Shown: in pieces, positions 6,747 through 34,122 of the stretch
How positions within the stretch are numbered: position 1 is the stretch's first letter
Layout: each line of letters opens with the position of its first letter
Assembly: GCF_000372725.1 (NCBI RefSeq)
Contig: NW_005201791.1
Coordinates: forward strand, 62,001 to 115,408
Reading direction: 5' to 3'
Source: Emiliania huxleyi CCMP1516
Lineage: Eukaryota
DNA length: 53,408 nt
Position numbers and translations under genes: made by a program
The notes under the pieces: model-generated
What the model saw: only the letters and a program-made list of their open reading frames with translations
Database searches by the model: none
Told to the model about the DNA's origin: nothing

Positions 6747-9710
6747 ATGCCAGAGTCGGTCAAGGAGCGATTAGCTCGGATGAAGGCCGAGAAGGCTGCG
6801 GCGGCCGCCGCCGCCGCCCAAGCCGAGGAGCCTGCTCCCGCGCCGGCAGCGGAGCCTCCGGCGGCCGAGGCGAAGCCAGCGCCGGCAGTGGAACCTGCGG
6901 CGGCCGAGGCAAAGAAGGAGACTCCCAAAGAGCGGCTGGCGCGCATCAAGGCGGAGAAGGCAGCGGCGGCGGCAAAGGAGGATGCACCAGCAGCGGCCGA
7001 GCCCGCTGAAGATCCGCCGGCTCCTCCTTCAGCGGAGGAGGCTGCTGCGGGAGCCGAAGACCCCGCTCCCGCTCCGGCTCCAGAGGACACGATCGACGAG
7101 TCCAAGGCTGCCGAGCCTCCCGCCGAGCCGCCTGCGGAGGCGGCGGCGGCGGGTGAGGGCGGCCCGGCGGCGCCCGACGACGGTGCGAGCTCGGCGGCGG
7201 CGCAAAAGAAGGCGGAGATGAAGGCGCGCCGACCGCTTGGACGCGTCCCTCGGACCCCCGAGGCCTCGGCCTAACACTCCTCCGGTTGGGCGTTAGGCGC
7301 GGCTAGCTGCGATGAAGGCGGAAGGCCGCGCCGGGAAGGCCGCGACGCCAAGAAGGGGAATACGGATATTCTTGTCTCCCAACTAGCGCTCGAGAGGTCG
7401 CGTAGTCAGCCTTCAGCTGCATTCATGTATTCGTACCCCTCGCATTCACGCGGTGCTCTGACTACTCTGCACAAGACCGTACTCCCGCCCCTGACCACGT
7501 GCGCCGGGCCTTGCACTTTGATGTGTGCCGTGCCGGCTCCTGCCCGTGTCCGGGTGTGGAGATGCGAGGGGCTGCCTGGCCCCTTCCCCACCACGTTGTG
7601 CGTGTGGAGAGGCCCACGTACCCACCCGCCTAGGATGCGATGCTCGAGATCATCGGCGACGCGGTCGCGTCCGGCGGCGCAGCGGCTCTTGCCTCGGAGG
7701 TGATCGCGGCTAGAAAGAGCCAGGCGGACACGGCCTCCAGGGAGGAAGGCCCAGGCGGGGGAGACCCTGGCGATGGAGTGGCAGCAGACGACGCGTCCGA
7801 CGAGGCGGTGGCGCCTGAGGCGGCGGCAGCGCCAGCGGCGGCGGAGGCGGAGGCGGCGGCGGAGGCGGCGGAGGCGGCGGAGGCGGCGGAGGCGGCGGAG
7901 GCGGCGGTGGCGGCAGCGGCGGAGGAGGAGGAGGAGGAGGAGGAGGAGGCGGGGGCTGCTGCGGAGGCGTCGGCAGCCGATGGCGCGGCGGAAGCGGAGG
8001 GGGAGGCGGAAGCGGGGGAAATGGCGGCGGCGGCGGCGGCGGAGGAGGAGGAGGAGGAGGAGGCGGCGGCGGGGGAGGCGGCGGCGGCGGGGGAGGCGGC
8101 GGCGGCGGGGGAGGCGGCGGCGGCGGACACGGAGGCGGGCGGGCAGGGTGCGGAGGTGGAAAGCGGCGTCTCTTCTCCGGCGGCGGCGAACGCCCTCGCA
8201 GGCATGCTGGACGCGGTCGGCTCGTCCTCCGAGTCGGTGGGCTCCGCGCCAGCGTCCAACGCCTCGACGGACGCGGCGGAGGAGGACGACACGCCTAGAA
8301 GCGGACTGTCTCCCCATATCTCCCCATATCTCCCCATATCTCCCCATATCTCCCCATATCTCCCCATATCTCCCCATAGCTCCCCATAGCTCCCCATATC
8401 TCCCGCCCTAGAAGCGGAAGACGGACTCTTGCACCCCGCCTAGCGCTCGAGGGGCGCGCACTCCGCTGCATCCGACCCTCTTCCGCGGTATGCACTGTGG
8501 TCGCATCCCTCGTCTTCACACGAGCTGCTCTGAATACGCGGCGCGAGACCGCACTCCCGCCCTCACCTCGGCTCCACGACGCAGGCGGACGACGAACTCG
8601 CCGGCGTCGCGAGACGCATCAGCGCGGCTCCAAACGGGTGCATTGCCGGCCCCACCGGGGGGGAGCGCAAGGCAGAGCGGCTCGCCCGCGCGCGGCACAG
8701 CCTCCGCTCGAGTTGCGGCGACCCGGGCGACCGGGGCAGCCTACGGATGAGCCTTGGCGACCGCGCGCCGTCGCCGGCCGGCATGTCCGCGACACGTCCA
8801 TGACACGTCCGAGACATGTCCCTAGGCGACCGCGCGCCGTCGCCGGCCGGCATTGACGAGGAGGCGGAGGACGCCAGCCTGACGCCGCGAACAAAGGAGA
8901 CGCTTGTCGGCGCGGTCCGGCCGCTGCGGCAGTCGTACCACGCTGTGGAGAGCTCCCGCTCAAGCCTCGGCGACGCGCGCGAGGAGGCGGAGGGAAGCGC
9001 CGGCAGCGTCGAGGGCGAAGAGAAGGCGGTCGCAGAGGCGGCCAAGCGCAGAGCGGCTCACGACGACTAGAAGCGGAAGACGCATGCTTGTACTCCAACT
9101 GGCGCTCGAGAGGACACGGCTTCGGCTGTATTCCGTCGTGTACTGCAACCGCATCGCTTGTACTCCTGTCGCTCGTATTCACGCGGTGCTCTGATGACAC
9201 CGCACAGCACCGCACTCTCGCCCCCGAGGGTGGCGTATTCGTAGCACGTAGGACGGTGGCCGACGTTGGTATATGCACCACTAGTACTCTGCACACCGCC
9301 GTACTCCTGGCCATGTACTCCGCACGAACCGTCTTCTCGCCCCGAGGTTGGCGTATTCTGCACCTTAGGCTCACGACGCGGAGTTCGCGCTGCTGGCGCC
9401 GGTGCAGCTGCCAAAGGAGATGCTGGTGCGCAGCGAGGGGGCGGCGACGGAGCTGCACCAGACGGTGTGGGGGCGCGTCGAGGCCCCCCCGTCGCGCAAG
9501 TCTTGGTTCGGGAAGAAGCAGCACGTCGTCAAGCCGGTGCCGAACGCTAGAGGCGGTATTCTTGTACTCCAACTAGCGCTCGAGAGGACACGTGTTCAGC
9601 TGTACTCGGCCGTATTCAGCCGTATTCACTGTAGTCGCTTCCCTCGTATTCCCGCCCTGATGTTGGTGTATGCAGCACCTAGGTGCCGAACCAGAACCGC
9701 GTCTTGCGGG
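6747..9710 (+). CDS. Multi-exon Ala/Glu/Pro-rich low-complexity protein of unknown function (3' end in gap)
   Basis: ATG 6747; repeated KERLAR(M/I)KAEK motif; in-frame joins across predicted introns 8757-8825, 9056-9368 and 9537-9682; some junctions unresolved. Confidence 0.6.
9067..9368 (+). mobile_element. CTAGA(A/G)GCGG introner-like element
   Basis: Shared 5' sequence with 7348, 8408, 9547 and minus-strand ~29434; flanked by GGCTCACGACG (9055-9065, 9368-9378). Confidence 0.7.
9547..9682 (+). mobile_element. CTAGA(A/G)GCGG introner-like element
   Basis: Begins and ends with CTAG; flanked by GGTGCCGAAC (9536-9545, 9682-9691). Confidence 0.75.
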
Positions 9711-11218
9711 TGGGCGCGCGGCTGCAGGCGGACAGACAGACAGAAGAACCTCCAAACCCCCTCAGTCTCTAGACCCCCCCCTCTCATTGACCACGTCTGT
9801 GCACATTCGAAGTGGCCTTCTCTTATGGAGGGAAGAGCTAGAGCCATCATCCAGGAGGGAGCCCCCCCCCNNNNNNNNNNNNNNNNNNNNNNNNNNNNNN
9901 NNNNNNNNNNNNNNNNNNNNNNNNNNNNNNNNNNNNNNNNNNNNNNNNNNNNNNNNNNNNNNNNNNNNNNNNNNNNNNNNNNNNNNNNNNNNNNNNNNNN
10001 NNNNNNNNNNNNNNNNNNNNNNNNNNNNNNNNNNNNNNNNNNNNNNNNNNNNNNNNNNNNNNNNNNNNNNNNNNNNNNNNNNNNNNNNNNNNNNNNNNNN
10101 NNNNNNNNNNNNNNNNNNNNNNNNNNNNNNNNNNNNNNNNNNNNNNNNNNNNNNNNNNNNNNNNNNNNNNNNNNNNNNNNNNNNNNNNNNNNNNNNNNNN
10201 NNNNNNNNNNNNNNNNNNNNNNNNNNNNNNNNNNNNNNNNNNNNNNNNNNNNNNNNNNNNNNNNNNNNNNNNNNNNNNNNNNNNNNNNNNNNNNNNNNNN
10301 NNNNNNNNNNNNNNNNNNNNNNNNNNNNNNNNNNNNNNNNNNNNNNNNNNNNNNNNNNNNNNNNNNNNNNNNNNNNNNNNNNNNNNNNNNNNNNNNNNNN
10401 NNNNNNNNNNNNNNNNNNNNNNNNNNNNNNNNNNNNNNNNNNNNNNNNNNNNNNNNNNNNNNNNNNNNNNNNNNNNNNNNNNNNNNNNNNNNNNNNNNNN
10501 NNNNNNNNNNNNNNNNNNNNNNNNNNNNNNNNNNNNNNNNNNNNNNNNNNNNNNNNNNNNNNNNNNNNNNNNNCGCAAGGAGACAAGAAAGGGAGACAGA
10601 GCCCGGAGGAGCGGGAGCAAGCGGGAAAAGCCGCGAGACAACAGGGGAGAGGGAGGAGGGGGAAGAACACCCCCCCCCCCCCCCCCCGCCGCCGCCGCCG
10701 CCTTCTCCTTCACCCTCCCCCCTCCCCCTGTCCGCCCGCCCCTCGACCCCCCTCCCCTTCCAAAGAGGCGCCCGAGCGACTGACTTGGACTCGCGCGCCG
10801 ACGTGCGTCTCAGGGGCCGCTCCTCGCTCAAGTCGACGAGCTCGTGTCGCAGCTGGGCCTTACCGTGGTGCGGTCTGCATGAGAGGGCGATTACAAGGGA
10901 CGGCGAAAGAGGGAGAGGCATGAGACGTTGAGGCGCGGGGATGACTTTTTCCACAGAGGGACGGATGCAGGAGCGTGGAGACGTGTTTTTGGGGGGGGGG
11001 CGCAGCAGCGCTCGGTGCATGCTGTACACTTTGTCGGGTACTATGTAATATAATAACCCGCGCCAAGTGCCATACGATTTCGCAGTCTGACCGTTTCTGG
11101 CCTCTGGGGGCGAGGTGTACCGTGTACCGCGGCCCGCGCAGCCTCCTCAGAGGACAGAGGGTCAGAGCGGGCTCAGCCTCGGTGCCCGCCAGGGAGGGTG
11201 CAGGGAGCGCTCACGCGG

Positions 11219-11941
11219 TCAGAGCATCTCGTGGGCAGCCTTCTCCTGGATGAAGGGAGGAAGACCGTTTCCCGAGTCTGTCGGTGTGGCGCCGACAGCC
11301 CTCGCGTATTCGAGGAGGCCGACCTGCCTGTGCAGCTTCCGCCGCACGTGCCTCACGGCGCTCAGCCGCCGCTGCGCCTCCGCCATCGAAAGCCCATGCT
11401 CGCTCAAGAGGTAGGCGAAGGCAACGGCCGCACCACGGCCATGCCCCGCCTTGCAGTGCACGAGGACCCGCGACTTCCCTTCCTCTGCTCCCTTCTGCAC
11501 CTGCTCGCTGATGAAGGCGACGGCCTGCTGCAGCTGCCCGAGAGTGGGCTCCATGTGATCCGTCACCGGCAGGTGAAGCTGCTCGATCGGCGGCGAGAGC
11601 GCGGCGTAGGCGGCGACAGGGCCGCCGTACTCGGCCTGCATGTTGACGACCGCACGCACGCCCATATCGTGCAGCTCACGCGGATGCCCCATGCAGGCCA
11701 GCGGCACAGCGCCGAGCAGAAGCACATCGTCGACCACCGAAAAGTACGGCTGCGGGGAGATGAAACGACGGGCGACGAACGTCGGTCCAATCATCGGCCA
11801 GAAGTAGCATTTGGTGAGCGGCAGCCACCAAGTGCGCGGCAGCTTCTTCTTTAGCAGCAGCAGGTACACACCGCAATAGACACCGAGTGCCGCCACCCAG
11901 ACAGCCGGCGATTGAAGCGCCGTCAAGACACCGAGCGCCAT
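11219..11941 (-). CDS. Dual-specificity phosphatase, PTPMT1-like
   Basis: VHCKAGHGR CX5R motif; LPVTDH acid loop; hydrophobic N-terminus; intact 240-aa ORF. Confidence 0.85.
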   Translation of the reverse strand: MALGVLTALQSPAVWVAALGVYCGVYLLLLKKKLPRTWWLPLTKCYFWPMIGPTFVARRFISPQPYFSVVDDVLLLGAVPLACMGHPRELHDMGVRAVVNMQAEYGGPVAAYAALSPPIEQLHLPVTDHMEPTLGQLQQAVAFISEQVQKGAEEGKSRVLVHCKAGHGRGAAVAFAYLLSEHGLSMAEAQRRLSAVRHVRRKLHRQVGLLEYARAVGATPTDSGNGLPPFIQEKAAHEML

Positions 11942-12388
11942 TCTGTGGGGGCTCGCAGCAGCCTTTGCTGATTCTTATGCACCGAAGCGAGGATGGCCGC
12001 GGGCAACGGACGCGGCAAGACAGCGATATGTGGGCCGATATGCGGCGTGGGTGTCGCAGCAAGTAGGCAGCGGGACGTACGAGTTGCGGGTACCCGGTGG
12101 CGGTTACGCCCGGTTGGAGAGCGTCGCGGCGGAGCACATGATCGACGTGGTGTAAGGACTGTGCTCGAAAACCATGTTTAGTCCATTAGTCGGCGGCTCT
12201 TGGCAGCGTGAAGTCGCAGGTGGCTTTGGGCGCGGACTCGCTCTGTGGCCTCTGGAGGTCTGTGGAGCACCAGCAGGATCCTGAGCTCATCGGGTGTCCA
12301 TTCCAAGTGCCCTTGAGACCCCCACTCAAAAAAACGCAAACCCTGTCAGCAGAGTCTCCTACGGGAATGTACGTAAGAGCTACATACA

Positions 12389-12450
12389 CCCCCCCTTGCC
12401 CCACCACCTCGTGTGTGTGGAGAAGTTTACCTTACCTTACCTTACCTTAC
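12389..12450 (+). mobile_element. Truncated (CCTTA)n-tailed element
   Basis: Matches the 3' end of the copies at 930-1075 and 28460-28594. Confidence 0.65.
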
Positions 12451-12591
12451 ATAAAATGAAAAAAACGCCACGTCGGCGAACCTCGGGCGAGAGTTAGGCG
12501 GCGCGCTGATAGACGAGAGTTAGGCCTGCTGGACGCGCGGCGCCTTCTCGTCGTCGGAGAACTCGATCTACCCCGGCGGGAGGACTGCACG

Positions 12592-13155
12592 ATGTCTCTC
12601 GCCTCCTTCCTTCAGCTTGCCCCCGCCGGCACTGAGCGACCCGACGGCGCAACCTCCATGCTGACCCTCGAGGGTAAGACCCTCACTGCCACACCTTCGA
12701 TGGGCACCAAGCCTGCGACTGAAGCCTGCGTCCTCTTCGGCTTTTCGGACGAGAAGCTTATGGAGGGCGCCGAGGTTAGCGGCCACCGCAGCTACGACGT
12801 GCTTCCCGGCTCCGAGAAGGTCCTCGAGGCGTCCGGGCGCAAGCTCTCCTCCGTGAAGGCCGTGCTCATCATCAACGGCACCGTCAAGCTGGACCCGCCC
12901 AACTTCCGCGGCATGCTCGAGAGCGAGGAGATGTCCGCGAACGTCGGCAACATGTTTGCTCAGCATGACGGCCTCATCGTCAAGCACTTCCTCGCGGCCC
13001 GTTGGGGCGAGAAGAACCGCGGGGGCGGTTGCTACTTCTTCCAGAGCACCGAGGAGATTGAGAAATACCTCTCCAGCGACTTCTGGGAGGGTTGCGTCAA
13101 GGAAACGCCCTGGGAGAACGTCACGTACGAGATGTACGCCGTCGTCGAGAAGTAG
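12592..13155 (+). CDS. Protein with C-terminal YdhR-like (dimeric alpha-beta barrel, putative monooxygenase) domain
   Basis: GLIVKHF...GGGCYFFQS.EEIEKYL.SDFW resembles the YdhR consensus; strong coding codon bias. Confidence 0.65.
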   Translation: MSLASFLQLAPAGTERPDGATSMLTLEGKTLTATPSMGTKPATEACVLFGFSDEKLMEGAEVSGHRSYDVLPGSEKVLEASGRKLSSVKAVLIINGTVKLDPPNFRGMLESEEMSANVGNMFAQHDGLIVKHFLAARWGEKNRGGGCYFFQSTEEIEKYLSSDFWEGCVKETPWENVTYEMYAVVEK

Positions 13156-13492
13156 GCACCATTGGGAAGCTCCCTCCTTTCCGCTCCGTGCATGATACGT
13201 AAATTGCTGCCCGGCTGCGCCGCTCTCAGCGTGTGTGTTAGGGGGAGGCCGCGTTGTGCCTGTTTTTTGCTGTTCTGTGCACACTGAGAGTGGGGCACTG
13301 TGGTGAGGAAAAAACAAACTAGGTTTTCACACACTTGTGAGAGGCGAGGTCAGTCCATCCCATCAGTTCGCACCCTCCAGCGGCAGGGATTTGGGGCATC
13401 CAGCAACAGCATGCGCGTTCCCGGGCATCGTCGGGTCGAGTATCGGGTATCGCGCGCCTCGCCTTGCTTGGGACGCTTGTGTGTGCTCACGC

Positions 13493-14130
13493 TCACGGGT
13501 CGTAGCACTTGCCCATCTCAGGCACCTTGCTTGCACCGCCCCACGTGTGGGTGAAGAGCTCGTACAAGCGGAAGATCTGCCGGTTGCGCACCCACTCCTG
13601 CGAGGGGCGATCGTGGTATGAGACGAACCCGCCCGCCACCTGTTTGAAGCTCGGCTTGCATACACTCTCCTGCGCATTGTCCGAGTAGAGCCCGTAGCTG
13701 GGACCGATGAGGAAGGGCGAGCCCTCGTCAGGTTCTAGAAGGTTGATGAGCGCGGCATGGGCCGTCGCTGGGTAGTTGTGCGTGTACGGGATCAGCGCCG
13801 GGTAGAGCGTGATCTCGTTGGGCGAGTCCTTGAGGTATAGTACAGGCCCGTGCGATAGACGCGGGGCAGGTGGTCCGGCGCGGCCAGTTGCACGAGCTTC
13901 GAAGTGCCGAGCTCGGCGAGTACACGTCTGACGTGCCGAAGGAAGCGGCACGACGTATTCACCTCGCACATGGCGCGGCAGGCGGCCTCGCCTGCCGGCC
14001 CATCGATGGCGGACCCAAGTGGTTCCTAAGCCAAACGTCACCGGCGCTCCCACGCCACACCACCCGTTCGTGCCGGAAGCAGCGGGGCTGATGCCGCGTC
14101 CATCCTGACGGAGGTGGCGGCCATCTCGGA
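13493..14130 (-). CDS. Hypothetical protein, probably spliced; C-terminal ~120 aa look coding
   Basis: Complex aromatic-rich sequence GPVLYLKDSPNEITLYP...GKCYDP*; 5' boundary uncertain. Confidence 0.4.
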
Positions 14131-15137
14131 CGTTCAAGCGGCGCCAGCCAGCGGCTCGGCCGCGCATCCTTCACACACGCCGCCACGACCAACCTGAGCG
14201 GGCCCGGTGTCGAGCCATGGTGCGAGCTGCATGTGAGGGGCGGCTGTGGCCACAGCAGGTCCACCAGACGGACCTCAAAGCTTGCCGTCGGCGTGCTGTC
14301 GTGGCGAGAGCGCGAGATCGCTGCAGAGGAGCCAAGTGCAGTGACGAGCCAGAGGCTACCTGGGTCACCAAGTGGTGGACCCTGCCCATTCTGAGCAGGG
14401 CTGTGCTTGGGTGGGGTTGTGCTTGAGCATGTGTGAAGTGGGAGTGCGTGCCTGCGGTGTCTGTGGGTGAAACAGGCGTGTGTGAGGCCGTAAGAGGCCT
14501 GGTATGAGCCAGAGTGGGCTTCATCACCCAAGATAAGGACGGTTTGGGACAGCTCAGGCTTGATACTGATGGGCCTGGGCCAGGAGAGCGACAGAGAAGG
14601 CGAGGTGGTGAGCTGGGAAGCCGCTTTGTCGGCACCTGGACGTGTCGCGATGAACTGCCAAAAAGCACCTTTGGCGGCTATTGCTCAAATCCCTGGGAGA
14701 GATGGCCTACATAGTATTACTGCATCCATGCGTCTGGTGCATGTGGGCTGTGGGTCGGGACATTTCACGGTCGGTGGCGCCGATATTGACCTCCGGAAAG
14801 CCCTCGCAATCGCTCGGCACGGGGCCACCGGGAGTGCTCTCGAGCCCTACACCGGAGCATCACGAGCCGGTGCGAGCTTGAAGACCCGAGATAAGAAAGT
14901 GCGGTCTGGGACAGCTCAGGGTTGCTACTGATGGGCTAGGCCAGGAGAGCGACAGAGAAGGCGAGCTGGTAATCCATCGCAAGCGACCCGGAGCGCGCAA
15001 CCGCGCATCTCGCCGCCGCGGGGCTCCGACTGGTTATCTAGACCTTCCTTCTTCCTCCCTGTTCCTTCCTTTCCCCTTCCCATCTCTTCCCGGCCTCCGG
15101 CCGGCGCCTGCGGCGCCGTTCTTTTTTTTTCCTTTTC

Positions 15138-17650: not shown

Positions 17651-20602
17651 TCACACATTCGCCGCTTCTGGTGTGCCGCCCTGCTTGATCTTGGCCACCA
17701 CCGAGTTCGATGGCTCTTCAGTGCGGCGCTTCTTCTTGTAGTAAACGTAGCCACCGCCGAGGGCAGCCACGACGGCCACCCCAGCCGCGGCCGCTGCAAT
17801 GGCGACCACAGGGGAGCCGCCGCTGCCGCTAGCGGTTGGCTTCGGGTCTTCTTCGACCTCAACCACGACGGCAGTTTCGACGGACGCCCCCACCCCAGCA
17901 AGGATAGGTCCCATCTGCTCCTCGAACGCATCCTGGCCAGCGGCCCCGGAGTACTGCTCGAGGTTGCGCTGAGCCGAGCTGACTTCCGATTGCGTGACCA
18001 CCGGGAACGTGGCAATCACGGCCACGTTTGCGCAAGTGCCCATAGAGCAAGGTGCAGAATCGACTCTGATCGTCGAATCGAGCGGCACGAAGGCAAAGCC
18101 GGCCAGTTCGGCGAGCTTCTCGAGGATGTTCCTCTTGGTGGCCTCGTCGTAGAAGTCGTACAGATCGCCGCGGGTTGCGGTGAACGAAGCGACGACCCGG
18201 AACGAGCCTGGCTCTTCTGACTGTGGCGACGGCGACACGGCGGGTGGCGGCGACGGGGGCGGCGATGGCGACGCGGAAGGTGGTGGCGGCGACGGTGATG
18301 CCGAAGATGTTAGCGTCAGATCGTTGTTCGTCCAGCCGTCGCAGTACATCGACCAGGTCGCCGTGCCGAGCGGGGGCGAGGAGGAGTCGGCAGAGTTGAT
18401 GCGGGCCTTGTAGCTGCAGCTCCCGTCGCCATCGAGGTCGCTCGATGCGGTGGTGCTCGGTGCGGTTGGGTCCACGATCCAACGAGCAGATCCCGATCCA
18501 TCGCCGTCGCAGTCGGGGTCCCAGTAGATGTAATACGATGACGAGGAATCGCGATAGTACGGCGCTCCTGAGGCCGTGTAGCCGACTGCGTTGTACTCCA
18601 CGTTGGCAAGGAGAGGACTGCATCCCCCAGTGACAACAAAAGGCGGAGGGGGCGGCGGCGGAGGGGGAGGTGATGGAGATGGCGCTGAGAGTGTCAGGTC
18701 TATCTGTGCCCAGGAGCCGTAGCACCACACCGTCCAGGTGTTCGTGCCGCGCGGCGGCGAGGAGGAGGCGGCAGAGTTGATGTGGGCCGTGTAGCTGCAG
18801 CTCCCGTCGCCATCGAGGTCGCTCGATGCGGTGGTGCTCGGTGCATCGCTGTCCACGATCCAACGAGCAGATCCCGGGCTGCCGCCGTCGCAGTCGGGGT
18901 CCCAGTAGATGTAGAATACGGACGATGGGTGACGGTAGTACGGAGCGCCCGATGCAGTGAACCCGGCGGCGTAATACTCCATGTCATCGAGATCGGGGGC
19001 GCAGCCTCCGCCACCGGCGACCACGAGGGGAGGCGGAAGCGGAGACGGGAGCGGCGGAGACGGCGGCCGGAGCGTGTGGAACCGACAGAGGCACTTGTCG
19101 TCCGTGGAGCAATCGCCCGTCTGTGTGCCGGGGTTGAAGTACAAATCATCGGTTCCCCACTCATCTTCGAACCAGCAGCCCGGGGGGTCGTGCGAAGCAG
19201 AGCCCTCTTGGACCGTTGGGGTGACGTCGGCATCGGAATAGCCGTTGAGAAAGGGGCGAAGCTCATGAGCCGCCTGTGCGCATTCGAAGGCGCTCGTGAT
19301 GCGCGCGCGCCCTGGGACATCATTACAAGTCCCGCTCGTCACGAGCACGTAGCTGTCCAAGACGGAGCACTTGACAGAAACGCTGTCGCTTGGCACCCAG
19401 TTGTTGGAATTCCGGTACGCCCAGGTGGAAGCCTGCTGCGGGCACTGTAGCTTGTTGTCGAGGGAAATGATGCCAGCTGATGCCTTTAAGTAGTCAGAGC
19501 CGATGCGCCAATCGGTGAATTCGGGCCAGTAGTAAAGGTAGTTGGAACTCGCCCCCTGTTTGTACACTGGCATGCCGCCCTGCGACAACCCGGGCACGAT
19601 GGTGTAAACGTCCTCCCGGCTGCCCTGGTTGCTGGAAGCAGCGCCAGAGAGGCTGACAATCAGCGAGCTGCAACACGTTTCCGAGCAGCCGTAAATGTCG
19701 CGGATCTGGCGCGCGTCGGTCAGGGAGAAGCCGCCGGTCGACCGCCCAATGCGAGCATCGGAGGTTTTGGTCGAGATCGCGTTTTTCGACGGGTCGATTG
19801 CAAAGCCCCCGATCGCCGGGTAGTGCATGATGCTGTTGTAGTCATAGGGCAGATGGGTGGAGTAATCTTCGTCGATCGTGTACTGATCATGCTGGTCGGA
19901 TACAATGTTGTCGTAGTGAATGATCACATACGCGTCGCGGTCGGGACGCTTGTGCGTGTGCCCGAGACCCAGAGCGTGCCCAATCTCGTGGACGATGTCA
20001 CCCAAACGGGTGTCATCATTGCACCACCCCATGTTGAGCTTGATCCCCTCGCCGTCCCAGGGGAACTTCACGGAGCACATGTCGTCATCGTACCGGCCGA
20101 CCGTAATCGCCGAATGATCGCATACATACGTGCGCACGAAAGTGAGACAGAAGCCGAGTTGGTTGATCTCTACTTCGGCACGATTGACCGCCTTCTCAAA
20201 GGCGCTCCTGCGGGTTGAATCGGCACTCCCGTCGAAGCAGTAGTAGACCTCACCTCCTTTGTGTACGATGGCGTTGGAGTGGATGTCAGAGTATGGCTCC
20301 ACCAGACGATTCAGGCGCCTGCCGGAGCCTAAGTGTTCGCCGTCCTGCTTGTGGTGAGCAACACCGAGCTCGTCATCGATCTCGTCATCCGTGAGCCAGA
20401 GGCCGCTGTCAATCAGCTCGGCTGTGGACATACGATCCACGACTGCCGTCATCATCTCGAGCCGGCTCGGCGGGGAGTCGACAGAGGCGGAGATGTTGAG
20501 GCGCGTGTACTCATCGGCAAAGCGCTCAAGGATCTGGGACCCCTCGGAAGAGCCACGTGCGTCGCCAGCTAGACACGCGAGGACGAGATAAAGGCGCAAC
20601 AT
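17651..20602 (-). CDS. Astacin-family (M12A) zinc metalloprotease, single-pass membrane protein, intronless
   Basis: Signal peptide from ATG 20602; HEIGHALGLGH; RPDRD; SIMHY Met-turn; duplicated extracellular module; Pro stalks; TM helix followed by YYKKKRR. Confidence 0.9.
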   Translation of the reverse strand: MLRLYLVLACLAGDARGSSEGSQILERFADEYTRLNISASVDSPPSRLEMMTAVVDRMSTAELIDSGLWLTDDEIDDELGVAHHKQDGEHLGSGRRLNRLVEPYSDIHSNAIVHKGGEVYYCFDGSADSTRRSAFEKAVNRAEVEINQLGFCLTFVRTYVCDHSAITVGRYDDDMCSVKFPWDGEGIKLNMGWCNDDTRLGDIVHEIGHALGLGHTHKRPDRDAYVIIHYDNIVSDQHDQYTIDEDYSTHLPYDYNSIMHYPAIGGFAIDPSKNAISTKTSDARIGRSTGGFSLTDARQIRDIYGCSETCCSSLIVSLSGAASSNQGSREDVYTIVPGLSQGGMPVYKQGASSNYLYYWPEFTDWRIGSDYLKASAGIISLDNKLQCPQQASTWAYRNSNNWVPSDSVSVKCSVLDSYVLVTSGTCNDVPGRARITSAFECAQAAHELRPFLNGYSDADVTPTVQEGSASHDPPGCWFEDEWGTDDLYFNPGTQTGDCSTDDKCLCRFHTLRPPSPPLPSPLPPPLVVAGGGGCAPDLDDMEYYAAGFTASGAPYYRHPSSVFYIYWDPDCDGGSPGSARWIVDSDAPSTTASSDLDGDGSCSYTAHINSAASSSPPRGTNTWTVWCYGSWAQIDLTLSAPSPSPPPPPPPPPPFVVTGGCSPLLANVEYNAVGYTASGAPYYRDSSSSYYIYWDPDCDGDGSGSARWIVDPTAPSTTASSDLDGDGSCSYKARINSADSSSPPLGTATWSMYCDGWTNNDLTLTSSASPSPPPPSASPSPPPSPPPAVSPSPQSEEPGSFRVVASFTATRGDLYDFYDEATKRNILEKLAELAGFAFVPLDSTIRVDSAPCSMGTCANVAVIATFPVVTQSEVSSAQRNLEQYSGAAGQDAFEEQMGPILAGVGASVETAVVVEVEEDPKPTASGSGGSPVVAIAAAAAGVAVVAALGGGYVYYKKKRRTEEPSNSVVAKIKQGGTPEAANV

Positions 20603-21165
20603 TAGCTGTTCGAAGGGAACGTTCGCGCGTCGGGCAACCAGTTCTTTGCACCTGTGGGGCGAAGCGTCGGTCGTCAGGCGATGCGAGGTTCTGGTGAGCA
20701 TGCTCAGAGAGAGAAGTATGAGGTAATGGGCCAGAGTTGATCATCCCAGTACGAGAGCTGCGTAGCGCATGGGAGAGTCGCGGGGCGGCCGGGCTTGCAT
20801 ACCTGAAATGCTCAAGCAGCTCGTGTGTGAGGCGAGCCGCGGCGAAGACCAACTCGAAGGAGAGCTCTCGGCGTGACAATCCATCGCGCCTCCTTTGGTT
20901 TTTTCTTTTTTTAGTTCACGCCCTTACATCCGAGCCTGGCTGTTCTTCACCTTTCTACCTACCTACCTACGCCCTTCTCGTGCCTTTCGCGCGATTACCC
21001 AAACGCGTCCAGGGAGGGCGAAAACAATTTCGTTGCGTGGCACACAGTTTTCTGACTCTTCTATACGCCGCCAGATCACAGTCTCAGTTTCGGGGACTGC
21101 ACTCGGCACTCGCGCTGTCGCGGTCGCGACGTCCCGACATGTAAGACCGGGGACACATGTGTGCC

Positions 21166-22620: not shown

Positions 22621-23966
22621 GGAGCACGCAGCGACAAAATGTTGACTGTACGGAAGTTGATATATACCAAAATGAGGGCGACACGACGCCTTCTACGCTG
22701 GGGTGCCGGCGCCCTACTGGGCGCCCCCCGCTCCCTTCCCCTCAGAGCCCCCCATCCCACTAGCACCCCCCCCCGCGGTCCCTCGCGGCCGCGCGACGCC
22801 GCACCAATGGCGCGCTGTGCCTCGTCCGCGAGCGCCGTCCAGAGCTGCACCGACAGTCGCTGCAGCGCAAACGGCATCCATACGCGCGCCGACCACGACG
22901 TCTGGTCGTACTGCCACCATTACCAGTATATGTAGCTCTTACGTACATTCCCGGAGGAGGACTGCTGACGGGGTTTGCGATGATTACCCACACTCTGTGT
23001 GTGAGTGAGTGAGTATTCTTGATACGAAACCACGAAGACACACACCAGTCGACTCGCATCGGTTGCCTCCATGAACGGCGGAGCTATTCTCGCGCCCACA
23101 CCACACCTGGCTCCAATGTGGACGCGCCCATAGCTGGGGACACTACTAGGTCACGCATGGCATCACAGAAGTTTTATCTCTGGGCCCCGAAAGGCATCTA
23201 TGCCGACGTGTCCCGCGTGCTCCCCCGTCCGCCGATGTCTCTGCTGCCGCCCGGCGGAGCTCTGCAGCGCGGGCCCTCCTCGCCGCCTTCGCTGCCGCTG
23301 CATCGCTGTCGGCTCGTCATGTCTGTCTACGATCATTTGGGGCTGCCATCGCTGTTCTCTCTCTCTCTCCCGGGGTCAGCTCCAACCTGCCGTGTCAGGA
23401 CGTCGCCCCCTCGCCCCCCCCCCCCCCCTCCCTTCTCCCCGGCACTGACTCCGCTGAACTGCATGCTGCGATTTTCTCGCCCCTTGTCCCAGGGGAGCCA
23501 GGTGCGTGTGTCTAATCGTAGTGGGGGCCCTGGCCCCCCTCTGTTTTCTGTTTGCTGTTTTTCAAAACGCCCGCCAGCCCGCCACCCCGAGAGGCGGCTC
23601 GCGCTCGGCCCCCCAGCCCCAGACAGCCCACTCACCGAGAGATCAAAAACGCTCGGCCTTGCCGGGGTCATGCTCATGGGCCTCAGGCAGTTCACTTTGG
23701 GGGGTACGGGTACCCCCCCCTGCTATACTTTGAGATTACTTAGGCACCAAAAGTGGTTCACAGTGAAGGCGGTCGCCGTCCTATCACTTCTCTGGGGGTG
23801 GCGCGGCGCCGCGCGCGCGCACACACTAGTACGTGCACCATACTGTACTCCACGCTACCTCGTACATGCACCAGCTGCCTGCGGGCGGGGCCGGATGTCC
23901 TGTGAACTTTGCACATTGCTATGAGATTGCGTCATTGCGTCGCCCTGCATGGAGCGACTCCATGGT

Positions 23967-24970
23967 CTACTGTCGGCAGGCTCTGCGCAGCTTGGGTATG
24001 ATCTTATCCGAGTATCTCTTCGGGGTCTCCGGCAGCAGCGAGCTCATCGCCTTGATGCTGGCAACTGTCGCATTCTTGCATACTGCCCCGATCTTGGCCT
24101 TCAATTCCCACTGGTGCATCAACCTCGACACTGAGTCCCGAGAGACTCCTCGCATCAGTAAGAAGTAACCGTAGGACCCCGTCAGCCCGAGGAGCCGCAG
24201 CATACCTGAAGACACCAGCTGCCCGAAGACAAAGAGGACTTGATTGACAGCTGGAGGACTGTCCACCGTATTTGTGAAAAAGAAGTCTGCAAACACCAGG
24301 ATGGAGCCCGGACGCAAGTAGGGTGCAACGGCGCCAATGTCCTGCGCAAGTGGCGCTGCGCTCTTGGCCGCATCGGTGATGAACACGTCGACTGTCGCCC
24401 CAGATAGTTTGCTATCCACCTCCCGATGCTCTCGAAAGTTGACGCGTTGTAGATGGGCAGCAGGTCTAAGTCTTTCATCTCATAATCAGTTTTCTTCGGA
24501 TCCCACCAACGCGTCCCGCGGAGCTTTGCAGCGTTGGACCCGATGAATCCAGCTTTGAACGCATCGAATCCAATCGCGCGATTCGGGTGGCCTGTCTGCT
24601 GGATCCCAGCTGCGAAGCATCGCATCGAGCCGCCTGCCCAGGTCCCAAATTCAACGAGCAGCCCATCGGTCACGCTCGCGCCGGCCGCGTAGTTGAAGCA
24701 GCACGCATAAGTGCTCATCGTGGCAAGCTGCTTGCCTTCGCGATCAAGTGACCCAAGCTGCAGCATTGATGCATCAAAGAAGCTCTTCCATGCCCTGTCT
24801 GGTGTGCCATGCACCATTTGCAGCCACTTGGCACCCGGCCATGATGGATCCAGTGGGCCCAATGCGTTCGGGTCGAGGGCAACAGATGCGCCGCAGTTGA
24901 GGTCGTGTGCCGTGGATTGAGACACGAGCAGCAGCGGCGCGGCGCGAAGCAGCGACCATGGTCGAACCAT
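23967..24970 (-). pseudogene. Class I SAM-dependent methyltransferase, frameshifted near 24445
   Basis: LVEFGTWAGGS motif I, IGFDAF, VDVFITDAAK and LRPGSILVFADF lie in two frames. Confidence 0.65.
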
Positions 24971-26465
24971 ATAGCCGTACGAAGAGAGAGCAACGCCAGT
25001 GCAGCCCAGCACGAAAAAGGTGAAGAAGATGCACAGCAGCTTTGACGAGCAGAAGCTGCCGAAGCCGGAGCCGAAGCCGAAGCGCGTCGAGGTCGGCTTG
25101 GTCTCCTCAGACGAGTCGTGCTTGTCCACCTGCGGTGCGAGACGCGCTGTCTCAAGCAAAGGTGCGGCGGGTGTGTGTGCAGAGCGAGTGGGCGCGAAAC
25201 CGTCGAGGACTTTTCACCCGCTTTGTCCGCCTCCGCGTCCTTCTCGTCGTCCTTCTCGTCGTCCTCGTCCTTGTCGTCGTCGGTCTGCGCCTTGATCTCG
25301 ACGTCGTCGAGCAGGTCGTACTTGTTGATGACCTTCGTGGGCTCGACCTCGCCCTTGCACTCCGTGTTGTTGCGTGAGGTCGAGGCGATCCAGCCGGCCT
25401 CGTCCTATCGAAAGCGAGACCGGGTCAGCTCAGTGTGGGTGTCAGACGCAAACTCCGCTCCTCGGAGGCGGCCTCCTCGGCGACGGGGGCCTCCTCGGCG
25501 GCGATCTCCTCGGCGGCGGCGGACTTGGCGGCGGCGGACTTGGCGGCGGCCTCCTCGGTGGCGGCCTGCTCGGTGGCAGCCTCCTCCTTCACGGCCACGA
25601 CCTTCTTGCGCGCCAGCAGCCCGCGCGAGACGCGCTGCATGATCTTCGCAGCGCGCGGCTCCGCCAACGCGATCTCGACGCTGGTCAGAAACATCGGCTT
25701 GGAGACGTAAAAGCTGTCCTCCACGACCATTGACAGGTTGGCCAACTCCTGCATGGTAGGGGTACACGGGAGAGAGAGTAATACGGGTGGGTGGAAAGCT
25801 AGGAGTGCCAGGAGAGAACGCTGCGGCGCGCTCACCGCTGGGTCGGGCGTGTTGAAAACGGTCTTGGCCGGCTTCTCGACCTCCTTGGCAGCCTCCTCGG
25901 CGACCTCCACTTCGGCGACGGGCGCCTCCTCGGCGACTGCCTCCGCGGCGGCGGACACCTCGGCGGCGGCGGACTTGATGGTCGCCTCCTCGGTGGCGGA
26001 CTCCTCGGCGACGACGGCCTCCTCGGAGGCGGCCTCGTCGGTGGCGGCCTCCTCCTTCACAACGACGTCGTTGTTGACGCCGCACGCCTGCGAGCAACGT
26101 AAATGTTTGGAGACGGGGACGCCGCAGGGACAATGCCGATCCTGGCGTGCGCGTGCGCACCTCAGCTCCGAGGAGCGAAGGCGGCAGCGTCAGGCTCGCG
26201 CGGCGGCGCTGATACCACTCCTCATAATCCGCACTGGAAGCGAAGTAGCCACCGACCTTGACGGAAGCCGTTGGCCCGAGCTCGGTCTGAACCTGGGCCC
26301 CCTCCTCAGGCGCGAAACAAAAGCTGATTGGCACCTTTGCGAGGCTCCGATGGAACACGTGGGGGTTGTCGAACCAGACGCCCTTTGTTGATCTCACAAC
26401 CATGAAAGCCGACTCGCCCTCGCTCTCATTGAAGTCGACCATGTAGCGCCTCTCGGCGCGCGTCC
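24971..26465 (-). CDS. Multi-exon acidic Ala/Glu-rich protein with IQ-like motif and hydrophobic segment
   Basis: AAKIMQRVSRGLLARKK IQ-like motif; EEAAT repeats; predicted introns; no stop before the methyltransferase frame. Confidence 0.55.
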
Positions 26466-26715
26466 TGCAGAGCAGAGAGAATGGGGGCCGCCCGTGAGAG
26501 GGGTGAGGCAAGGCGCCTGCATTGGTCGGAAGTGCGAACAGCATGCGCATGTGTGGGGTCTGAAATGAGAGGAGAGTGACGGGGGACAAAGCTCGGACGT
26601 TGAGCCTGCGGAGGGCGGCGTCACGAGGGAGCGGGCTAAAGTTCGTGTCGGGCGAGTGTTGCAGGCGACGAGGGCCAGCGAATAAGAGGCCTTGCGGGCG
26701 AGGGCGTGTGTTCGG

Positions 26716-26719
26716 GTGT

Positions 26720-26802
<83 letters not shown>
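26716..26802. repeat. (GT)n microsatellite
   Basis: Visible. Confidence 0.95.
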
Positions 26803-26804
<2 letters not shown>

Positions 26805-27680
26805 TGTGTGAGTGTGTGCGTGCGAGTCTGACTGTGCGCGTGCCTCGTTGTCCGCGCCAAGAGTGGTTGCCATGAGTGTGCTCTGTATACTGTGCCTGCT
26901 TGCCTCTCGAGCCTCTTTCAAACNNNNNNNNNNNNNNNNNNNNNNNNNNNNNNNNNNNNNNNNNNNNNNNNNNNNNNNNNNNNNNNNNNNNNNNNNNNNN
27001 NNNNNNNNNNNNNNNNNNNNNNNGTGTTGTTGGGGGGGGGGGGGGGGGCTGGCGGCGAGGCGGGGGGGCTGCGGCGGCGGCAGTGTCGACGGCAGGGCGG
27101 CGAAGGCATCGGGGGCGGCGGTGAAGGCTGCGGCGGCACATTGCGCGGCGGAGGCGGCGGCACAACGGCGGCGGTGGCCCGGAAGTGGCAGCAACGAAGC
27201 GGCGGTGGGCGAATCGTCGTCGTTCATAGCCTGGCCGCAGTAGTCAGGCACGCACGGGGCAGGAAGGAGGCGGACGGCAAAGCGGTGACGGAGTCAGCGG
27301 TGGAGAAGTCGGAGGTGAGCGCGCCGGAGAGACCCGAGGCGCGACCGCCGCACGCAGCGAACAAAGAGCGCTGGTCCGCGATGTAGCAGATGTTGTCCGG
27401 CACGGAGAGCGTCAAGGGCACGCGCGCGCCAGCCGCCGCCGTTGAGATTCAGTCGCCCGTGGGCTGGGGTCGAGGGACTTGGGAGCAGCTGTGTGCCGCG
27501 TGCGCTGTGGGCTGTGGGTCTGTCGTTCGGTGCGTGTCTATTCTAAGATGTGGGTGCATGCGCCGGCAAACCTGGCGTCGTCGCCTACACAAGCAGACAG
27601 CGGCGGGGCGTCAGAGCCGGGCCGGGCGGAGCGGCGTGGCGAGAGGGCACGCTCTCGATTCTGGTGTGGAGAGATCACGT

Positions 27681-27849
27681 CTGGATTCAAACTTTTTGCG
27701 GGGTAAGGTATGGTACGGTCGGCGCCAAAAGGGTGGGGGGGTATGGTCCTGCTGGCCAGAGGCGACGTCCTGTGCGGGTGGGGGGGTATGGTCGCGGCGC
27801 CAGGGCGCCGACCCTACCATACCATACCCCGCAAAAAGTCCGAACCCTG
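27681..27849. mobile_element. 169-bp foldback/MITE
   Basis: 36-bp inverted repeat with 2 mismatches (ACTTTTTGCGGGGTA.GGTATGGTA.GGTCGGCGCC), extending imperfectly to a CAGGGTTCGG-type end; no TSD seen. Confidence 0.65.
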
Positions 27850-28318
27850 CGGGCCGCATTCTTTTTTCTTTTTTGCTGGCCTTGCCGGTAGGTGTTACCT
27901 CAACGAACCCACACATGCAGAGATGGACGAGTGCACGCATTGGGCATCAGAGAGCCATAACTTGCCTCGGTACTCTATTAATTGATTTTTTCAAAGGGTT
28001 GCCCGGCCGGGTTGCTGCGCAAATCTCGCGCTGCGCTAGGCTCAAGGGCGAACGGCACGATGCGAAAAGGCAGGGCGAGGCGGATGGAGAAAGAAGTGCC
28101 GAGAAGGCCATGGTGGAGGGGAGGGACGGGAGGACGAAAGAAGGGCGAGGAGGACGAGCGGCCCGCACAGACCGCGAGCAGACAGCGCCTGCTGGCCATT
28201 TCGAGACATTCGCCAAGAACGCTAGCTACATGGGAGGGCTTCGTGAAGGATGGATTGAAAAACATTCGAACAAAGAAGAGGCGACGGGAGGAACCGGCGG
28301 AGGATGCAGTGACGTGAG

Positions 28319-28459
<141 letters not shown>

Positions 28460-28594
28460 GCTCACCCACGCGCACTGGGCCTTGCACTTTGAATGCCGTG
28501 GGGCTCCTGTCGTCAGACGTGGAGACGCGAGGGTTGCCCCCCCTTGCCCCACCACCTCGTGTGTGTGGAGAAGTTTACCTTACCTTATCTTACC
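28460..28594 (+). mobile_element. (CCTTA)n-tailed element copy
   Basis: Aligns with 930-1075. Confidence 0.7.
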
Positions 28595-29154
28595 AATGTG
28601 GGACCAGTGCGGCATCGCGCCATCGACAGCTCTGAACTGCGCCTCACCACTGACCAGGAAGGCCGCCAAGTGGGCCAGCACAGGTCGCACATTGTGGCAG
28701 CAGTCAGCAGTGCATGTCTGATAGCTAGAGCACCAGCGTCAGGGTCGCAGGGTTGGATCGTGTCAAGCCTCTCGCCCGGCCGGCCGCGTGCAGACGTCGC
28801 TCGTCGGCCTGTCTGGGCACTGTCCGGTCAGGAGTGATCGTCGGCGGTCAGTGCGACCAATCAGGTCGGAGGTTTCTGATGGTTGGAGGGTCTATCTGTA
28901 ACCTAGCTTAATTGGGAAGTTGGTGCTCTGAGCGACTCTGAGCGCCGGGGCCCCGTTTCCGCACTGCGGCGCGGCGCACGGTGCCTCCGGGGGGCCCCGC
29001 GCACACTAATACGTGCACCATACTGTACTCCACGCTACCTCGTACATGCACCAACCAGACTCCACGCGCGGGCGCCCCGCGGTCTCTAACGTACGGTTCC
29101 CCGACTGCCGACAGCCACGGAGCCAGCACGGCCACGAGAGCCCCTTCCGCGGCA

Positions 29155-31480
29155 TCAGCCCAGCCGCTTGTGCTTCGCGGCCGCCGGCGCGCGCGTCTCC
29201 GACGAGTCATGGAAAAGGAATGCGAGAGCGATGACCACGTACCTACATGCTGAAGACACCGACATCAGGGCGGGAAGACGGCAGTGTGCAGAGTCTTCAT
29301 AGCGCTGCGGGAAGACGGGGGGGGGGGGGGGGGGCTGCGAATACAGTGAACACAGCTGAGCACGGCCGAATACAGCGGAGTCCGTGCCTCGCGGGTGCTG
29401 GCTGGAAAGACAAAGAGTCCGTGTTCCGCCTCTAGGCCTCGAGATACGGGGAGATACGGGGAGATACGGGGAGATACGGGGAGATATGGGGAGATCTTCC
29501 GCCTCTAGGACCACACGCACAGGCTGATGAGAGTAAGCCCCTTAAGCCAGTTGGAGCGGCCAGAGGGCAGCACCGTCGCCACGCCGAGGATGGTGAGCAC
29601 GAGGCAGGCCGTCTAGCCGCGAGATGACCCGAGATGACCCGAGATGGCGCGAGGTGGCGCGAGGTGGCGAGCACGAGGCAGGCCGTCTCGAAGGGCAGCA
29701 CCAGGAACAGCGAATGAATCTCGGGCGATCTCGGGTGTCATCGATCATCTGCAGACACGCACCACTCCCTGTCCCCCCCCCCCTCTCTCTGTCTCTTTGC
29801 ATTCATCAAATCTCCCATCGCACGCACCTCGAAGGGAAGCATATCGAGCGAGAGAGGCTCGCCATATGCCCACGCCGCGAGCACCTAGAAAAGAACACGG
29901 CGGGTAAAAAAGAAACAACAGCGCGCACGGGTGAGTAGGGAGAGCAGCACCGACGCCGGGAATACCTCGAGATACGGGGAGATGTGGGGGAGATAGGGGG
30001 GAGATATGGGGAGATAGCACCGACGCCGGGAAGCCCAGCAGCGTGATCTGCGTCGCCGACCCGACCGCGACTCCGATGGCGAGGTCGGGCTTGTTCCTGG
30101 CGGCGAGGGCGACCGCGTCTAAGGCCTCGAGATAGGGGGAGAGATGGGGGGGGGAGAGATGGGGGGAGATCTTGTTCCTGACGGCGAACATGACCGCGGA
30201 CGCGTGCTCGGCGGCGTTTCCGACGATGGGCAGCAAGATGGTGGAGACGAATGCGAGTGGAACCTTCGCACCCGCCGCGGCCCCCTGGATCGACCCGACA
30301 ACCACCTCGGACAGTCCCGCCGTGGCAGCGCACAGCAGCGCCAGCGCGACGGTCGACTGGCGGAAGCTTAGCTCCTCCTCCTCCTCCTCCTCCACCTCCT
30401 CCTCCTCCGCCGCCGCCGCCGCCGCCGCGGCCGCCTCCTCGTCCTTTTCCCCGTCGTCGTCGTCGTCTGCCGCAGCGGCGGGGAGGCAGGCCACTGTGTG
30501 CGGGCGGCGGCCGACGCCTGTGGGAGGAGGAGCATTCCAGCCTCGGGGCGGGCTGTGACGTCTCGCTGCTGGCTCCGCTCTGCCGCGCGGCAGACGGCCC
30601 CTCTCCTGGGTGTACGGGCAGGGGCTTCGCACGGCGTGCATGGCGACTGCAGTCCAGCGGAGCGCAGCCTCGAGCACGCGTGTTCGAAGGGGTGCTGGTG
30701 TGAGCTCAGACGCCCTCGCACTCCGCGTCTAGGGCCTCGGGAGAGGGGGAGAGAGGGGGGGAGATCTCGGGAGGTGCGGGGGAGATGCCGAGCTCAAAGG
30801 CGATCAAGCTCGCGTAGGAGAAGAGGAGCACGACGGAGACCCACCGCGAGAGCGAGAGCACGTCGCTCTCCGTGTCCTCGTGCCGCGACGACTTTGTCTC
30901 GCCTGCAGCGTGCAGCTTCGGGTTGTCGGGCGCGGGTGTCCTCTCACCAGCTGTCCTGTGAGCTGTGAGCTGTGCAAGTGTCTCGGGAGTGACCCTCGCC
31001 GAGGACGTCCGGAACAACCATAGTCACGGCGCCCAGGACCAGGACTGCGGCGTGCGCCTCTGCGCTCTTTTGGTCGTATCGCTGCGTGGCGTGCCGCACG
31101 CCCCCAAAGAAGAAGGCGCAGCCGAGCACGAGCAGCAGGTTCGAGAGGACCGAGCCCAGTAGCGAGAGCTGCACCACCCGCAGCAGCCCCTCGCGGATGG
31201 CGCAGAGCGACACGATGAGCTCAGTCGCGTTGCCAAAGGTGGCGTTGAGCAGCGCGCCAGCCTGGCTCGAAGTGTGGAGCGCCGCCTGCTCCGTGGCGTA
31301 GCCAATGCGCTCGGCGAGCGGGCAGAGCGCTGCAAGCGCGAGTAGGAAAGAGATCTCGTCGCCGATGCCGAGGCGCGCTGCCAAAAGCGCCGCAGGGCCG
31401 CACGGCAGGAGCAGATTCAGCCGCGAGCCGAAAAGGACGTGCAGCGCGGCGTGGGCGGCTGATTTGGTTCGTCGCCTCAT
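29155..31480 (-). CDS. CAX: Ca2+/H+ exchanger (CAX family), multi-exon
   Basis: LLNATFGNATE alpha-1 repeat; GSVLSNLLLVLG; acidic loop; LLPIVGNAAEH alpha-2 repeat; GSATQI; SNWLKG. Confidence 0.92.
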
Positions 31481-34051: not shown

Positions 34052-34122
34052 GCATCGTTGGTCTAGTGGGAGAATGCTCGCCTGCCACGCGGGAGACCCG
34101 GGTTCGATTCCCGGACGATGCA
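34052..34122 (+). tRNA. tRNA-Gly(GCC)
   Basis: GCATCGT/ACGATGC acceptor stem; anticodon loop CTGCCAC; GGTTCGATTCC T-loop; downstream TTTT terminator. Confidence 0.97.

What the first reader, a model, noticed from the sequence alone, without database searches (positions are those of the whole stretch)
7348..29520. A repeated introner-like element family starting CTAGA(A/G)GCGG
Seen: five intron fillers share a 5' core like CTAGA(A/G)GCGG...CTTGTACTCCAACTAGCGCTCGAGAGG...GCTGTA(T/C)TC. They lie at 7348-7633 (eroded start), 8295/8408-8584, 9067-9368, 9547-9682 and on the minus strand in CAX (29243-29508). In the clearest copies the element starts within a base of a ~10-bp exon duplication and ends in YAG; 9547-9682 has CTAG at both ends. 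All copies are in the host gene's sense orientation. Inference: a non-autonomous element that carries the acceptor and co-opts the donor from its target duplication.
Basis: partly seen in the sequence, partly recalled or inferred. Interest (0 to 1): 0.8.

Follow-up and report, generated by a model that had tools for sequence, protein, structure and literature searches.

The report
Old intron-making transposon in a coccolithophore
Five likely introns in this stretch of the alga Emiliania huxleyi are filled by copies of one short repeat that likely jumped into coding sequence, supplied the intron's end signal and borrowed its start signal from a few duplicated bases, which makes it likely a new family of an already known kind of intron-making element.

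Summary
The family is real. A profile built from three metagenome loci alone finds exactly the five window copies (E ≤ 4e-16), and no intergenic or antisense copy turned up. The host is Emiliania huxleyi. Eight independent copies are 65-88% identical, and all lie in the host gene's sense strand (inferred for L002 and L004). The element begins (C)CTAG 10-13 nt after a GT, GC or GA donor, behind a roughly 9-nt copy of the next exon's start. Splicing is supported for the CAX copy (homology) and for L005 (transcript-type proteins), but not for the four copies in gene A. No empty site or transposase was found. Ten of 17 unrelated introns also open with exon copies, so the duplication alone is not diagnostic. 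E. huxleyi introners, including one family that co-opts its 5' site and carries its 3' site, are already tabulated in print, but none with these lengths. Verdict: likely an old MITE-type introner, a new member of a known kind. The scan noted a similar footprint in another haptophyte, not this family.

The parts
6747..9727 (+). Host gene A (unknown protein; Ala/Glu-rich N-terminal part). 7 predicted exons: 6747-7223, 7297-7338, 7634-8281, 8585-8756, 8826-9055, 9369-9536, 9683-9727. Four of its six introns hold the element.
   Evidence: Removing the six introns gives 594 codons without a stop. No spliced homolog found.
7339..7633 (+). c1 intron (295 nt; GC donor inferred). Eroded 9-nt duplication 7339-7347, element body 7348 to about 7500, an unrelated repeat at about 7495-7610, then a possible remnant end at CTAG.
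   Evidence: donor chosen by frame and duplication, not shown
8282..8584 (+). c2 intron (303 nt; GA donor at 8282, alternative GC at 8276). Outer element start 8294, 10-nt ATCTCCCCAT array 8309-8404, inner start 8407, degraded 3' end at the AG.
   Evidence: donor uncertain
9056..9368 (+). c3 intron (313 nt; GC donor). 10-nt duplication 9056-9065, element from 9066, first 3' end at 9251, then two more tandem 3' ends, the last being the acceptor.
9537..9682 (+). c4 intron (146 nt; GT donor). 9-nt duplication 9537-9545, internally deleted element 9546/9547-9682 with CTAG at both ends.
29243..29520 (-). c5, last intron of a CAX H+/Ca2+ exchanger gene (278 nt; GT donor, phase 2). Slipped duplication 29520-29510, outer element start 29509, 10-nt array 29495-29441, inner start 29436, element end at the acceptor 29243.
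   Evidence: Spliced alignment to a profile of 93 CAX homologs, without the two E. huxleyi gene models, puts the junction at 29520/29243. Both E. huxleyi models join it the same way.
29155..31480 (-). Host gene of c5: CAX-type H+/Ca2+ exchanger
   Evidence: 98% to two E. huxleyi CCMP1516 proteins; PF01699

Best explanation
These are copies of one short non-coding element (about 180 bp at full length) with imperfect terminal inverted repeats, likely a non-autonomous DNA transposon (MITE) that inserted into exons and likely created the introns it now fills. Shown: the shared sequence, the fixed 5' start just behind a short copy of the next exon, and the 3' end at the acceptor AG in c2-c5. Inferred mechanism: a transposase supplied in trans made a staggered cut, and repair duplicated the target. 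Where the target began with G plus T, C or A, that dinucleotide became the donor and the element's terminal TAG became the acceptor, so splicing restores the original mRNA. Three parses fit: an 8-nt duplication with ends CCTAG...CTAGG (donor G from the flank, last G of the element read as exon), a 9-nt one, or a 10-nt one with ends CTAG...CTAG. The 8-nt parse needs the fewest later mutations, but intronic copies cannot settle it. The wave is likely old: copies differ by 12-35% while alleles differ by 1-2%. Since insertion, copies have been reshaped by deletion (c4), nested arrays (c2, c5, L004), a nested repeat (c1) and 3'-end duplication (c3).
For: Family in five unrelated host genes. Sharp 5' boundary with unrelated flanks. 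Match to the next exon is 0.6-1.0 at intron positions 1-9, 0.4 at position 10 and 0 at 11-12 (c1-c4 donors partly chosen on the duplication); donor-free test. G|GH at -10 in 3 of 3 outside loci. Independent protein support at L005 and c5. Terminal inverted repeat: the majority 5' 16-mer matches the reverse complement of the c5 end at 13/16 (0 of 597 other YAG|G sites reach this) and of the c4 end at 11/16 (3 of 597). A GTATTC-like motif is repeated along the element and inverted at position 11. 8 of 8 copies are in the sense strand (p 0.008). GC and GA donors are validated in E. huxleyi (PMC4028052). The same geometry is described for Polarella classes 1, 4/5 and 6/8/10.
Against: No empty site. 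14 of 14 clustered gene calls at c3, 4 of 4 at L002 and 2 of 2 at c4 carry the element, though clustering on a read-through frame favours occupied alleles. No transposase family among 120 long frames of the window. 10 of 17 unrelated introns also open with an above-chance copy of the next exon. The inverted repeat fails ungapped for the c3 ends (4-6/16), and c4 folds no better than shuffles (z -0.18). With symmetric ends, antisense insertions should also give G..AG, yet none was seen. Four of five window copies lie in one gene, and c4's nearest relative is L002 (88%), not its neighbours (71-77%). A branch-like CTRAY/CTGAT motif sits at -20 to -23 in only 3 of 5 copies and is not a clear rule in control introns. 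Splicing of c1-c4 rests only on frame restoration.
Confidence: 0.7

Rival explanations
1. No transposase is involved. E. huxleyi makes introns by a general duplicate-and-fill repair process, and this sequence is one filler template copied from intron to intron by templated repair or gene conversion.
For: 10 of 17 control introns show 7-28-nt junction copies. 10-nt arrays sit between duplicated element starts in c2, c5 and L004. The element's middle has a 10-nt period like those arrays. 16 of 28 allele differences fall in 59 nt of c3, and the L001 version scores closer to c4, c5 and L002. Four copies lie in one gene.
Against: Fixed start at +11 in 5 of 8 copies (+12 to +14 in the rest), short uniform duplication, inverted termini and an end flush with the acceptor. 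Repair fillers are not expected to keep both ends (inference).
Confidence: 0.18
2. An ordinary MITE that landed secondarily in older introns, close to their donors.
For: c2 has an alternative donor 19 nt upstream with a longer degenerate repeat. The c1 duplication is weak. Older introns here already carry junction copies.
Against: In c3, c4 and c5 nothing is left of an older intron on either side. 8 of 8 copies are in the sense strand. Element homology runs to the acceptor in 4 of 5 window copies.
Confidence: 0.07
3. An RNA-borne introner: excised introns re-enter by reverse splicing or reverse transcription, which would fix orientation and favour the same transcript.
For: Strict sense orientation; four copies in one gene.
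Against: The mobile unit lacks the first 9-10 intron bases, which are locus-specific. It has inverted termini. Neighbours are not each other's closest relatives. No Rfam match.
Confidence: 0.05

Closest known systems
E. huxleyi CCMP1516 introner families in Gozashti et al. 2025 (PMC12130899, supplement sd07) and 2022 (PMC9860276, supplement sd01)
   Same: Same species. 2025 fam24 is listed as 'co-opt 5' carry 3'' with '10bp terminal direct repeats'. 2022 lists 653 elements in 5 families.
   Different: By my reading of the coordinate columns the three 2025 families give introns of about 67, 70 and 38 nt, and 2022 mean lengths are 70 or 37. These introns are 146-313 nt. No TIR is called there (N or ?). 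Four motifs of this family occur in none of the 14 supplementary files of the 2025 paper, which by their listing are tables, so overlap with a 2022 family (2, 4 or 5; GC 54-57%) cannot be excluded.
Polarella glacialis and Symbiodinium introner-like elements (bioRxiv 10.1101/2020.10.14.339549)
   Same: Element end gives the 3' site and the target duplication gives a GT/GC/GA donor. Classes 6/8/10 have 8-nt duplications. Class 1 can take the donor from the pre-duplication base plus the first duplicated base and the acceptor from the element's 2nd and 3rd-last bases, which is the 8-nt parse here.
   Different: Those are young (terminal tips 0.9-3.8% in the two classes quoted) and abundant, and the 8-nt classes work in both orientations. 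This family is 65-88% identical and seen in one orientation.
Aureococcus and Micromonas MITE-type introners (Huff et al. 2016)
   Same: One splice site carried and one co-opted from the duplication (as summarised; the paper itself was not held).
   Different: No sequence comparison was possible; different lineage; Micromonas duplications are 3 nt.

Membership tests
Introner (intron-generating TE) | Similar introns in non-paralogous genes | tested here: met
   Gene A, CAX and three other host genes
Introner (intron-generating TE) | Similarity reaches both intron boundaries (survey rule: within 10 intronic bases) | tested here: inconclusive
   3' end flush in c2-c5. 5' similarity starts at +10 to +13, on or past the survey limit, with the gap filled by the duplication
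Introner (intron-generating TE) | Spliced out, restoring the reading frame | tested here: met
   L005 by 4 transcript-type proteins, with 1 intron-retaining form; c5 by homology; c1-c4 by frame only. No reads were available.
Introner (intron-generating TE) | Empty site or intron-less ortholog (new intron position) | tested here: inconclusive
   All sampled alleles occupied; no outgroup DNA available
Introner (intron-generating TE) | Recent burst of near-identical copies | tested here: not met
   65-88% pairwise identity. An exact 27-mer hit only 5 metagenome stretches, 4 distinct loci. This lowers 'active', not 'works like'.
MITE / TIR DNA transposon | Terminal inverted repeats | tested here: met
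   Imperfect: 13/16 (c5), 11/16 (c4) against a null mean of 6.2 over 597 sites; c3 ends fail ungapped
MITE / TIR DNA transposon | Target duplication of constant length | tested here: inconclusive
   9 nt with the donor G in c1, c2, c4, c5, 10 in c3; 8, 9 and 10-nt parses not separable
MITE / TIR DNA transposon | Autonomous partner with the same ends; superfamily (8 nt fits hAT, P, Merlin or Novosib, 9-11 nt fits Mutator; lengths recalled) | not testable with these tools
   No whole genome; no transposase family in the window
Helitron | No target duplication; 3' CTRR end inserted between A and T (recalled; quotes no TSD) | tested here: not met
   Duplications present. Read antisense, the base after CTAG would be T in only 1 of 8 copies.
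SINE / non-LTR retroelement | tRNA- or 5S-derived head, poly(A) or simple-repeat tail | tested here: not met
   The only Rfam hit in the window is a tRNA at 34052-34122; no tail at either end

The most novel reading that the evidence does not exclude
Most E. huxleyi introns are fossils of duplicate-and-insert events that recruit the donor from GC-rich coding sequence. This family is one datable transposon wave among them, and this origin, not GC content acting on old introns, is why the species has a GC-donor majority, GA donors and pervasive intron retention.
Probability: 0.3. Interest if true: 0.7.

Novelty: new member of a known kind. Interest (0 to 1): 0.38.

Why it matters
It adds an older, longer, TIR-bearing family to the introners listed for a major bloom-forming alga. 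It also suggests why annotation-based surveys could miss such families: similarity starts at or beyond their 10-base limit, and the public gene model at L005 mis-splices the junction (P0127). The wider lead is that 10 of 17 unrelated introns carry the same kind of footprint. That offers a testable origin for the 56-65% GC donors that PMC4028052 attributes to GC content.

Tried and rejected
No whole genome was held and no sequencing reads were obtained, so copy number, intergenic fraction, read-level junctions and empty sites are open. Four viral contigs pattern scans and one genome-contig scan found 0 matches. Gene A homologs: none, only one read-through gene call, no Atlas hit, 0 of 10 exact look-ups. 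L004's host: only a sub-threshold cNMP-binding hit (E 0.15) and no useful PDB hit; L002's host: no Pfam hit. Their sense orientation is therefore inferred from frames and neighbouring G..AG junctions. Folding c4 showed no special stability. A carried branch point is not established. Helitron and SINE readings were rejected (see membership test). One search had three donor coordinates off by one or two, corrected. In one search L003 was given in the wrong orientation and its row was ignored; one search shows L003 equals L001 over the compared span. Control introns: 14 window junctions plus 3 from L005 were kept. I dropped 7 of 16 MCC junctions and 4 of 8 CAX junctions because they lay in poorly aligned or gapped regions (a fifth CAX junction is c5 itself). 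Two gene-A controls (7224, 8757) were set by eye. Not-in-print claim: searches listed no description of this family. Read et al. 2013 and Huff et al. 2016 were not held, the 2022 supplement was cut when stored, bioRxiv supplements were closed, and Repbase was not available; any of these may bear on novelty.
Full report
Host and setting. The window is 64% GC. The CAX exon at 30980-31480 is 98% identical to two Emiliania huxleyi CCMP1516 proteins. No whole genome was held, so all counts rest on the window, five metagenome loci and protein collections.

Observation. All five copies exist as described. An exact internal 27-mer found 5 metagenome stretches: L001 and L003 are another allele of window 8.4-9.9 kb, and L002, L004 and L005 are new genes. 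A profile from those three new loci alone recovers 5 of 5 window copies at E ≤ 4.2e-16 and nothing else at E<1. The eight-copy profile adds only c3's extra 3' ends, the outer starts of the array-bearing copies and weak self-matches, with no intergenic or antisense full copy. The alignment shows unrelated flanks up to a sharp start at (C)CTAG and a body of about 180 nt. Pairwise identity is 65-88%.

Are they introns? For c5, a spliced alignment to 93 CAX homologs, using no duplication information, gives donor 29520 and acceptor 29243. For L005, I read 12 of the 15 listed members of a 20-member cluster. Four (P0123, P0128, P0130, P0138) lack all the gene's introns and read PDDVGVYYLV. P0137 stops at PDDVGVYS (intron retained), and the public gene model P0127 mis-joins the site. 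For c1-c4, removal at G(T/C/A)..AG yields a 594-codon open frame. c1-c3 hold in-frame stops and c4 shifts frame. No spliced protein of gene A was found, so these junctions, especially the c1 and c2 donors, are inferred. GC and GA donors are validated in this species (PMC4028052, passages), and a GA donor is forced at another L005 intron.

Target duplication. The donor-free test gives c3 9/9, c4 9/9, c2 8/9, c5 6/9 and c1 6/9. The sum of 38 was reached by 0 of 100,000 null draws, but c1 and c5 are not significant alone. With donors assigned (partly circular for c1-c4), identity to the next exon drops to zero at positions 11-12. As an out-of-sample check, 3 of 3 new loci have G|GH exactly 10 nt before the element's CTAG/ATAG. 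At L005 every possible GT/GC donor lies upstream of the codons for VY, so the next exon must repeat them. A C precedes CTAG in 6 of 8 copies; 5 of 14 clustered c3 gene calls end AHDA-stop, which suggests a C there too (DNA inferred from protein). The duplication can thus be read as 8 nt with ends CCTAG...CTAGG, 9 nt, or 10 nt with ends CTAG...CTAG.

Termini. The majority 5' 16-mer matches the reverse complement of the c5 end at 13/16 and of the c4 end at 11/16. Of 597 other YAG|G sites, 0 and 3 do as well. c3's ends fail without a gap. A GTATTC-like motif recurs along the sense strand, with 10-nt spacing in the middle, and once inverted at position 11. That pattern is typical of transposase-binding subterminal motifs (recalled), but it also resembles this genome's 10-nt arrays.

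Control. Of 17 unrelated introns (9 MCC-alpha, 3 CAX, 2 gene A, 3 L005 gene), 10 exceed the 95th percentile of 462 mismatched pairs for an anchored copy of the next exon, over 7-28 nt. Junction duplication is therefore a genome trait here. What marks this family is the short, fixed offset and the shared ends.

Age and polymorphism. Window and L001 differ at 28 of about 1,460 positions, 16 of them in 59 nt of c3. The L001 version of that segment scores higher against c4, c5 and L002, which suggests conversion between copies. All sampled alleles are occupied: 14 of 14 at c3, 4 of 4 at L002 and 2 of 2 at c4, with an ascertainment bias towards occupied alleles. Copy divergence far above allele divergence points to an old, fixed wave (inference).

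Unexplained. Four of five window copies sit in one gene, yet c4 is closest to L002. No antisense copy was seen although the ends are near-symmetric. The antisense strand has 3-4 AG in its last 50 nt against 1-2 in sense, which may disfavour it (inference). No transposase family was found among 120 frames of at least 150 codons.

Comparison with print. Gozashti et al. 2022 (PMC9860276; passages; supplement rows) list 653 introners in 5 E. huxleyi families. The 2025 paper (PMC12130899; passages; supplement rows) keeps 3, one of them co-opt 5'/carry 3' with 10-bp terminal direct repeats. Listed lengths are about 37-70 nt, against 146-313 nt here, and four motifs of this family were not found in its 14 supplementary files. 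Roy et al. (bioRxiv 10.1101/2020.10.14.339549; parts 1-2 of 4 read) describe the same geometry in dinoflagellates. A review (PMC11282704; passages) frames such elements as MITE-like. Huff 2016 and Read 2013 were not held. Sequence look-ups in earlier scan notes were blank; word look-ups showed a similar 15-bp footprint in another haptophyte.

Verdict. It works like a carry-3'/co-opt-5' MITE introner (0.7). Membership is met for family, inverted ends and splicing at two loci, inconclusive for empty sites and duplication length, and not met for recent activity. New member of a known kind; interest 0.38. The bolder reading, that most E. huxleyi introns and its GC-donor majority come from such events, has probability about 0.3.

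Noticed in passing
window 34639-39725 (-), 29613-30177 (-), 7224-7296, 8757-8825; L005: 10 of 17 introns unrelated to the family begin with a degenerate 7-28-nt copy of the next exon (28 nt perfect at 8757); three use GA donors.
   Followed up: partly
window 8294-8420, 29420-29509; L004 1110-1195: 10-nt ATCTCCCC arrays sit between two copies of the element's own 5' end in three copies. In L004 the repeat includes host flank, suggesting independent insertions at one hotspot. The same footprint gives an 81-nt in-frame insert at CAX 30097-30177.
   Followed up: partly
window 9201-9259 versus L001: 16 of 28 allele differences cluster in 59 nt of c3, which also has three tandem 3' ends; likely conversion between copies.
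   Followed up: partly
window 7495-7610, 948-1049, 12392-12423, 28466-28571: A second dispersed repeat. Its copies outside c1 are followed or bordered by (ACCTT)n-like runs, and one fragment is nested inside c1.
   Followed up: no
window 42005-45900: 102-bp satellite, about 37 copies at about 97% identity, with 42-, 56- and 144-bp variants.
   Followed up: no
window 49900-50566 and 52127-53408 (-); 47700-49060 versus 50667-52025; 2480-3630 versus 5030-6625: Second partial copy of the MCC-alpha (biotin carboxylase) gene and other near-identical blocks next to gaps; may be haplotype or assembly duplication.
   Followed up: no
L005 gene, protein P0127: The public CCMP1516 gene model mis-splices three junctions relative to transcript-type proteins, consistent with GT-biased prediction.
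   Followed up: partly
window 17654-20740 (-), 11222-11974 (-), 12460-13152 (+), 34052-34122 (+): Long intron-less astacin-domain frame, dual-specificity phosphatase, YdhR-like mono-oxygenase, and a tRNA.
   Followed up: no
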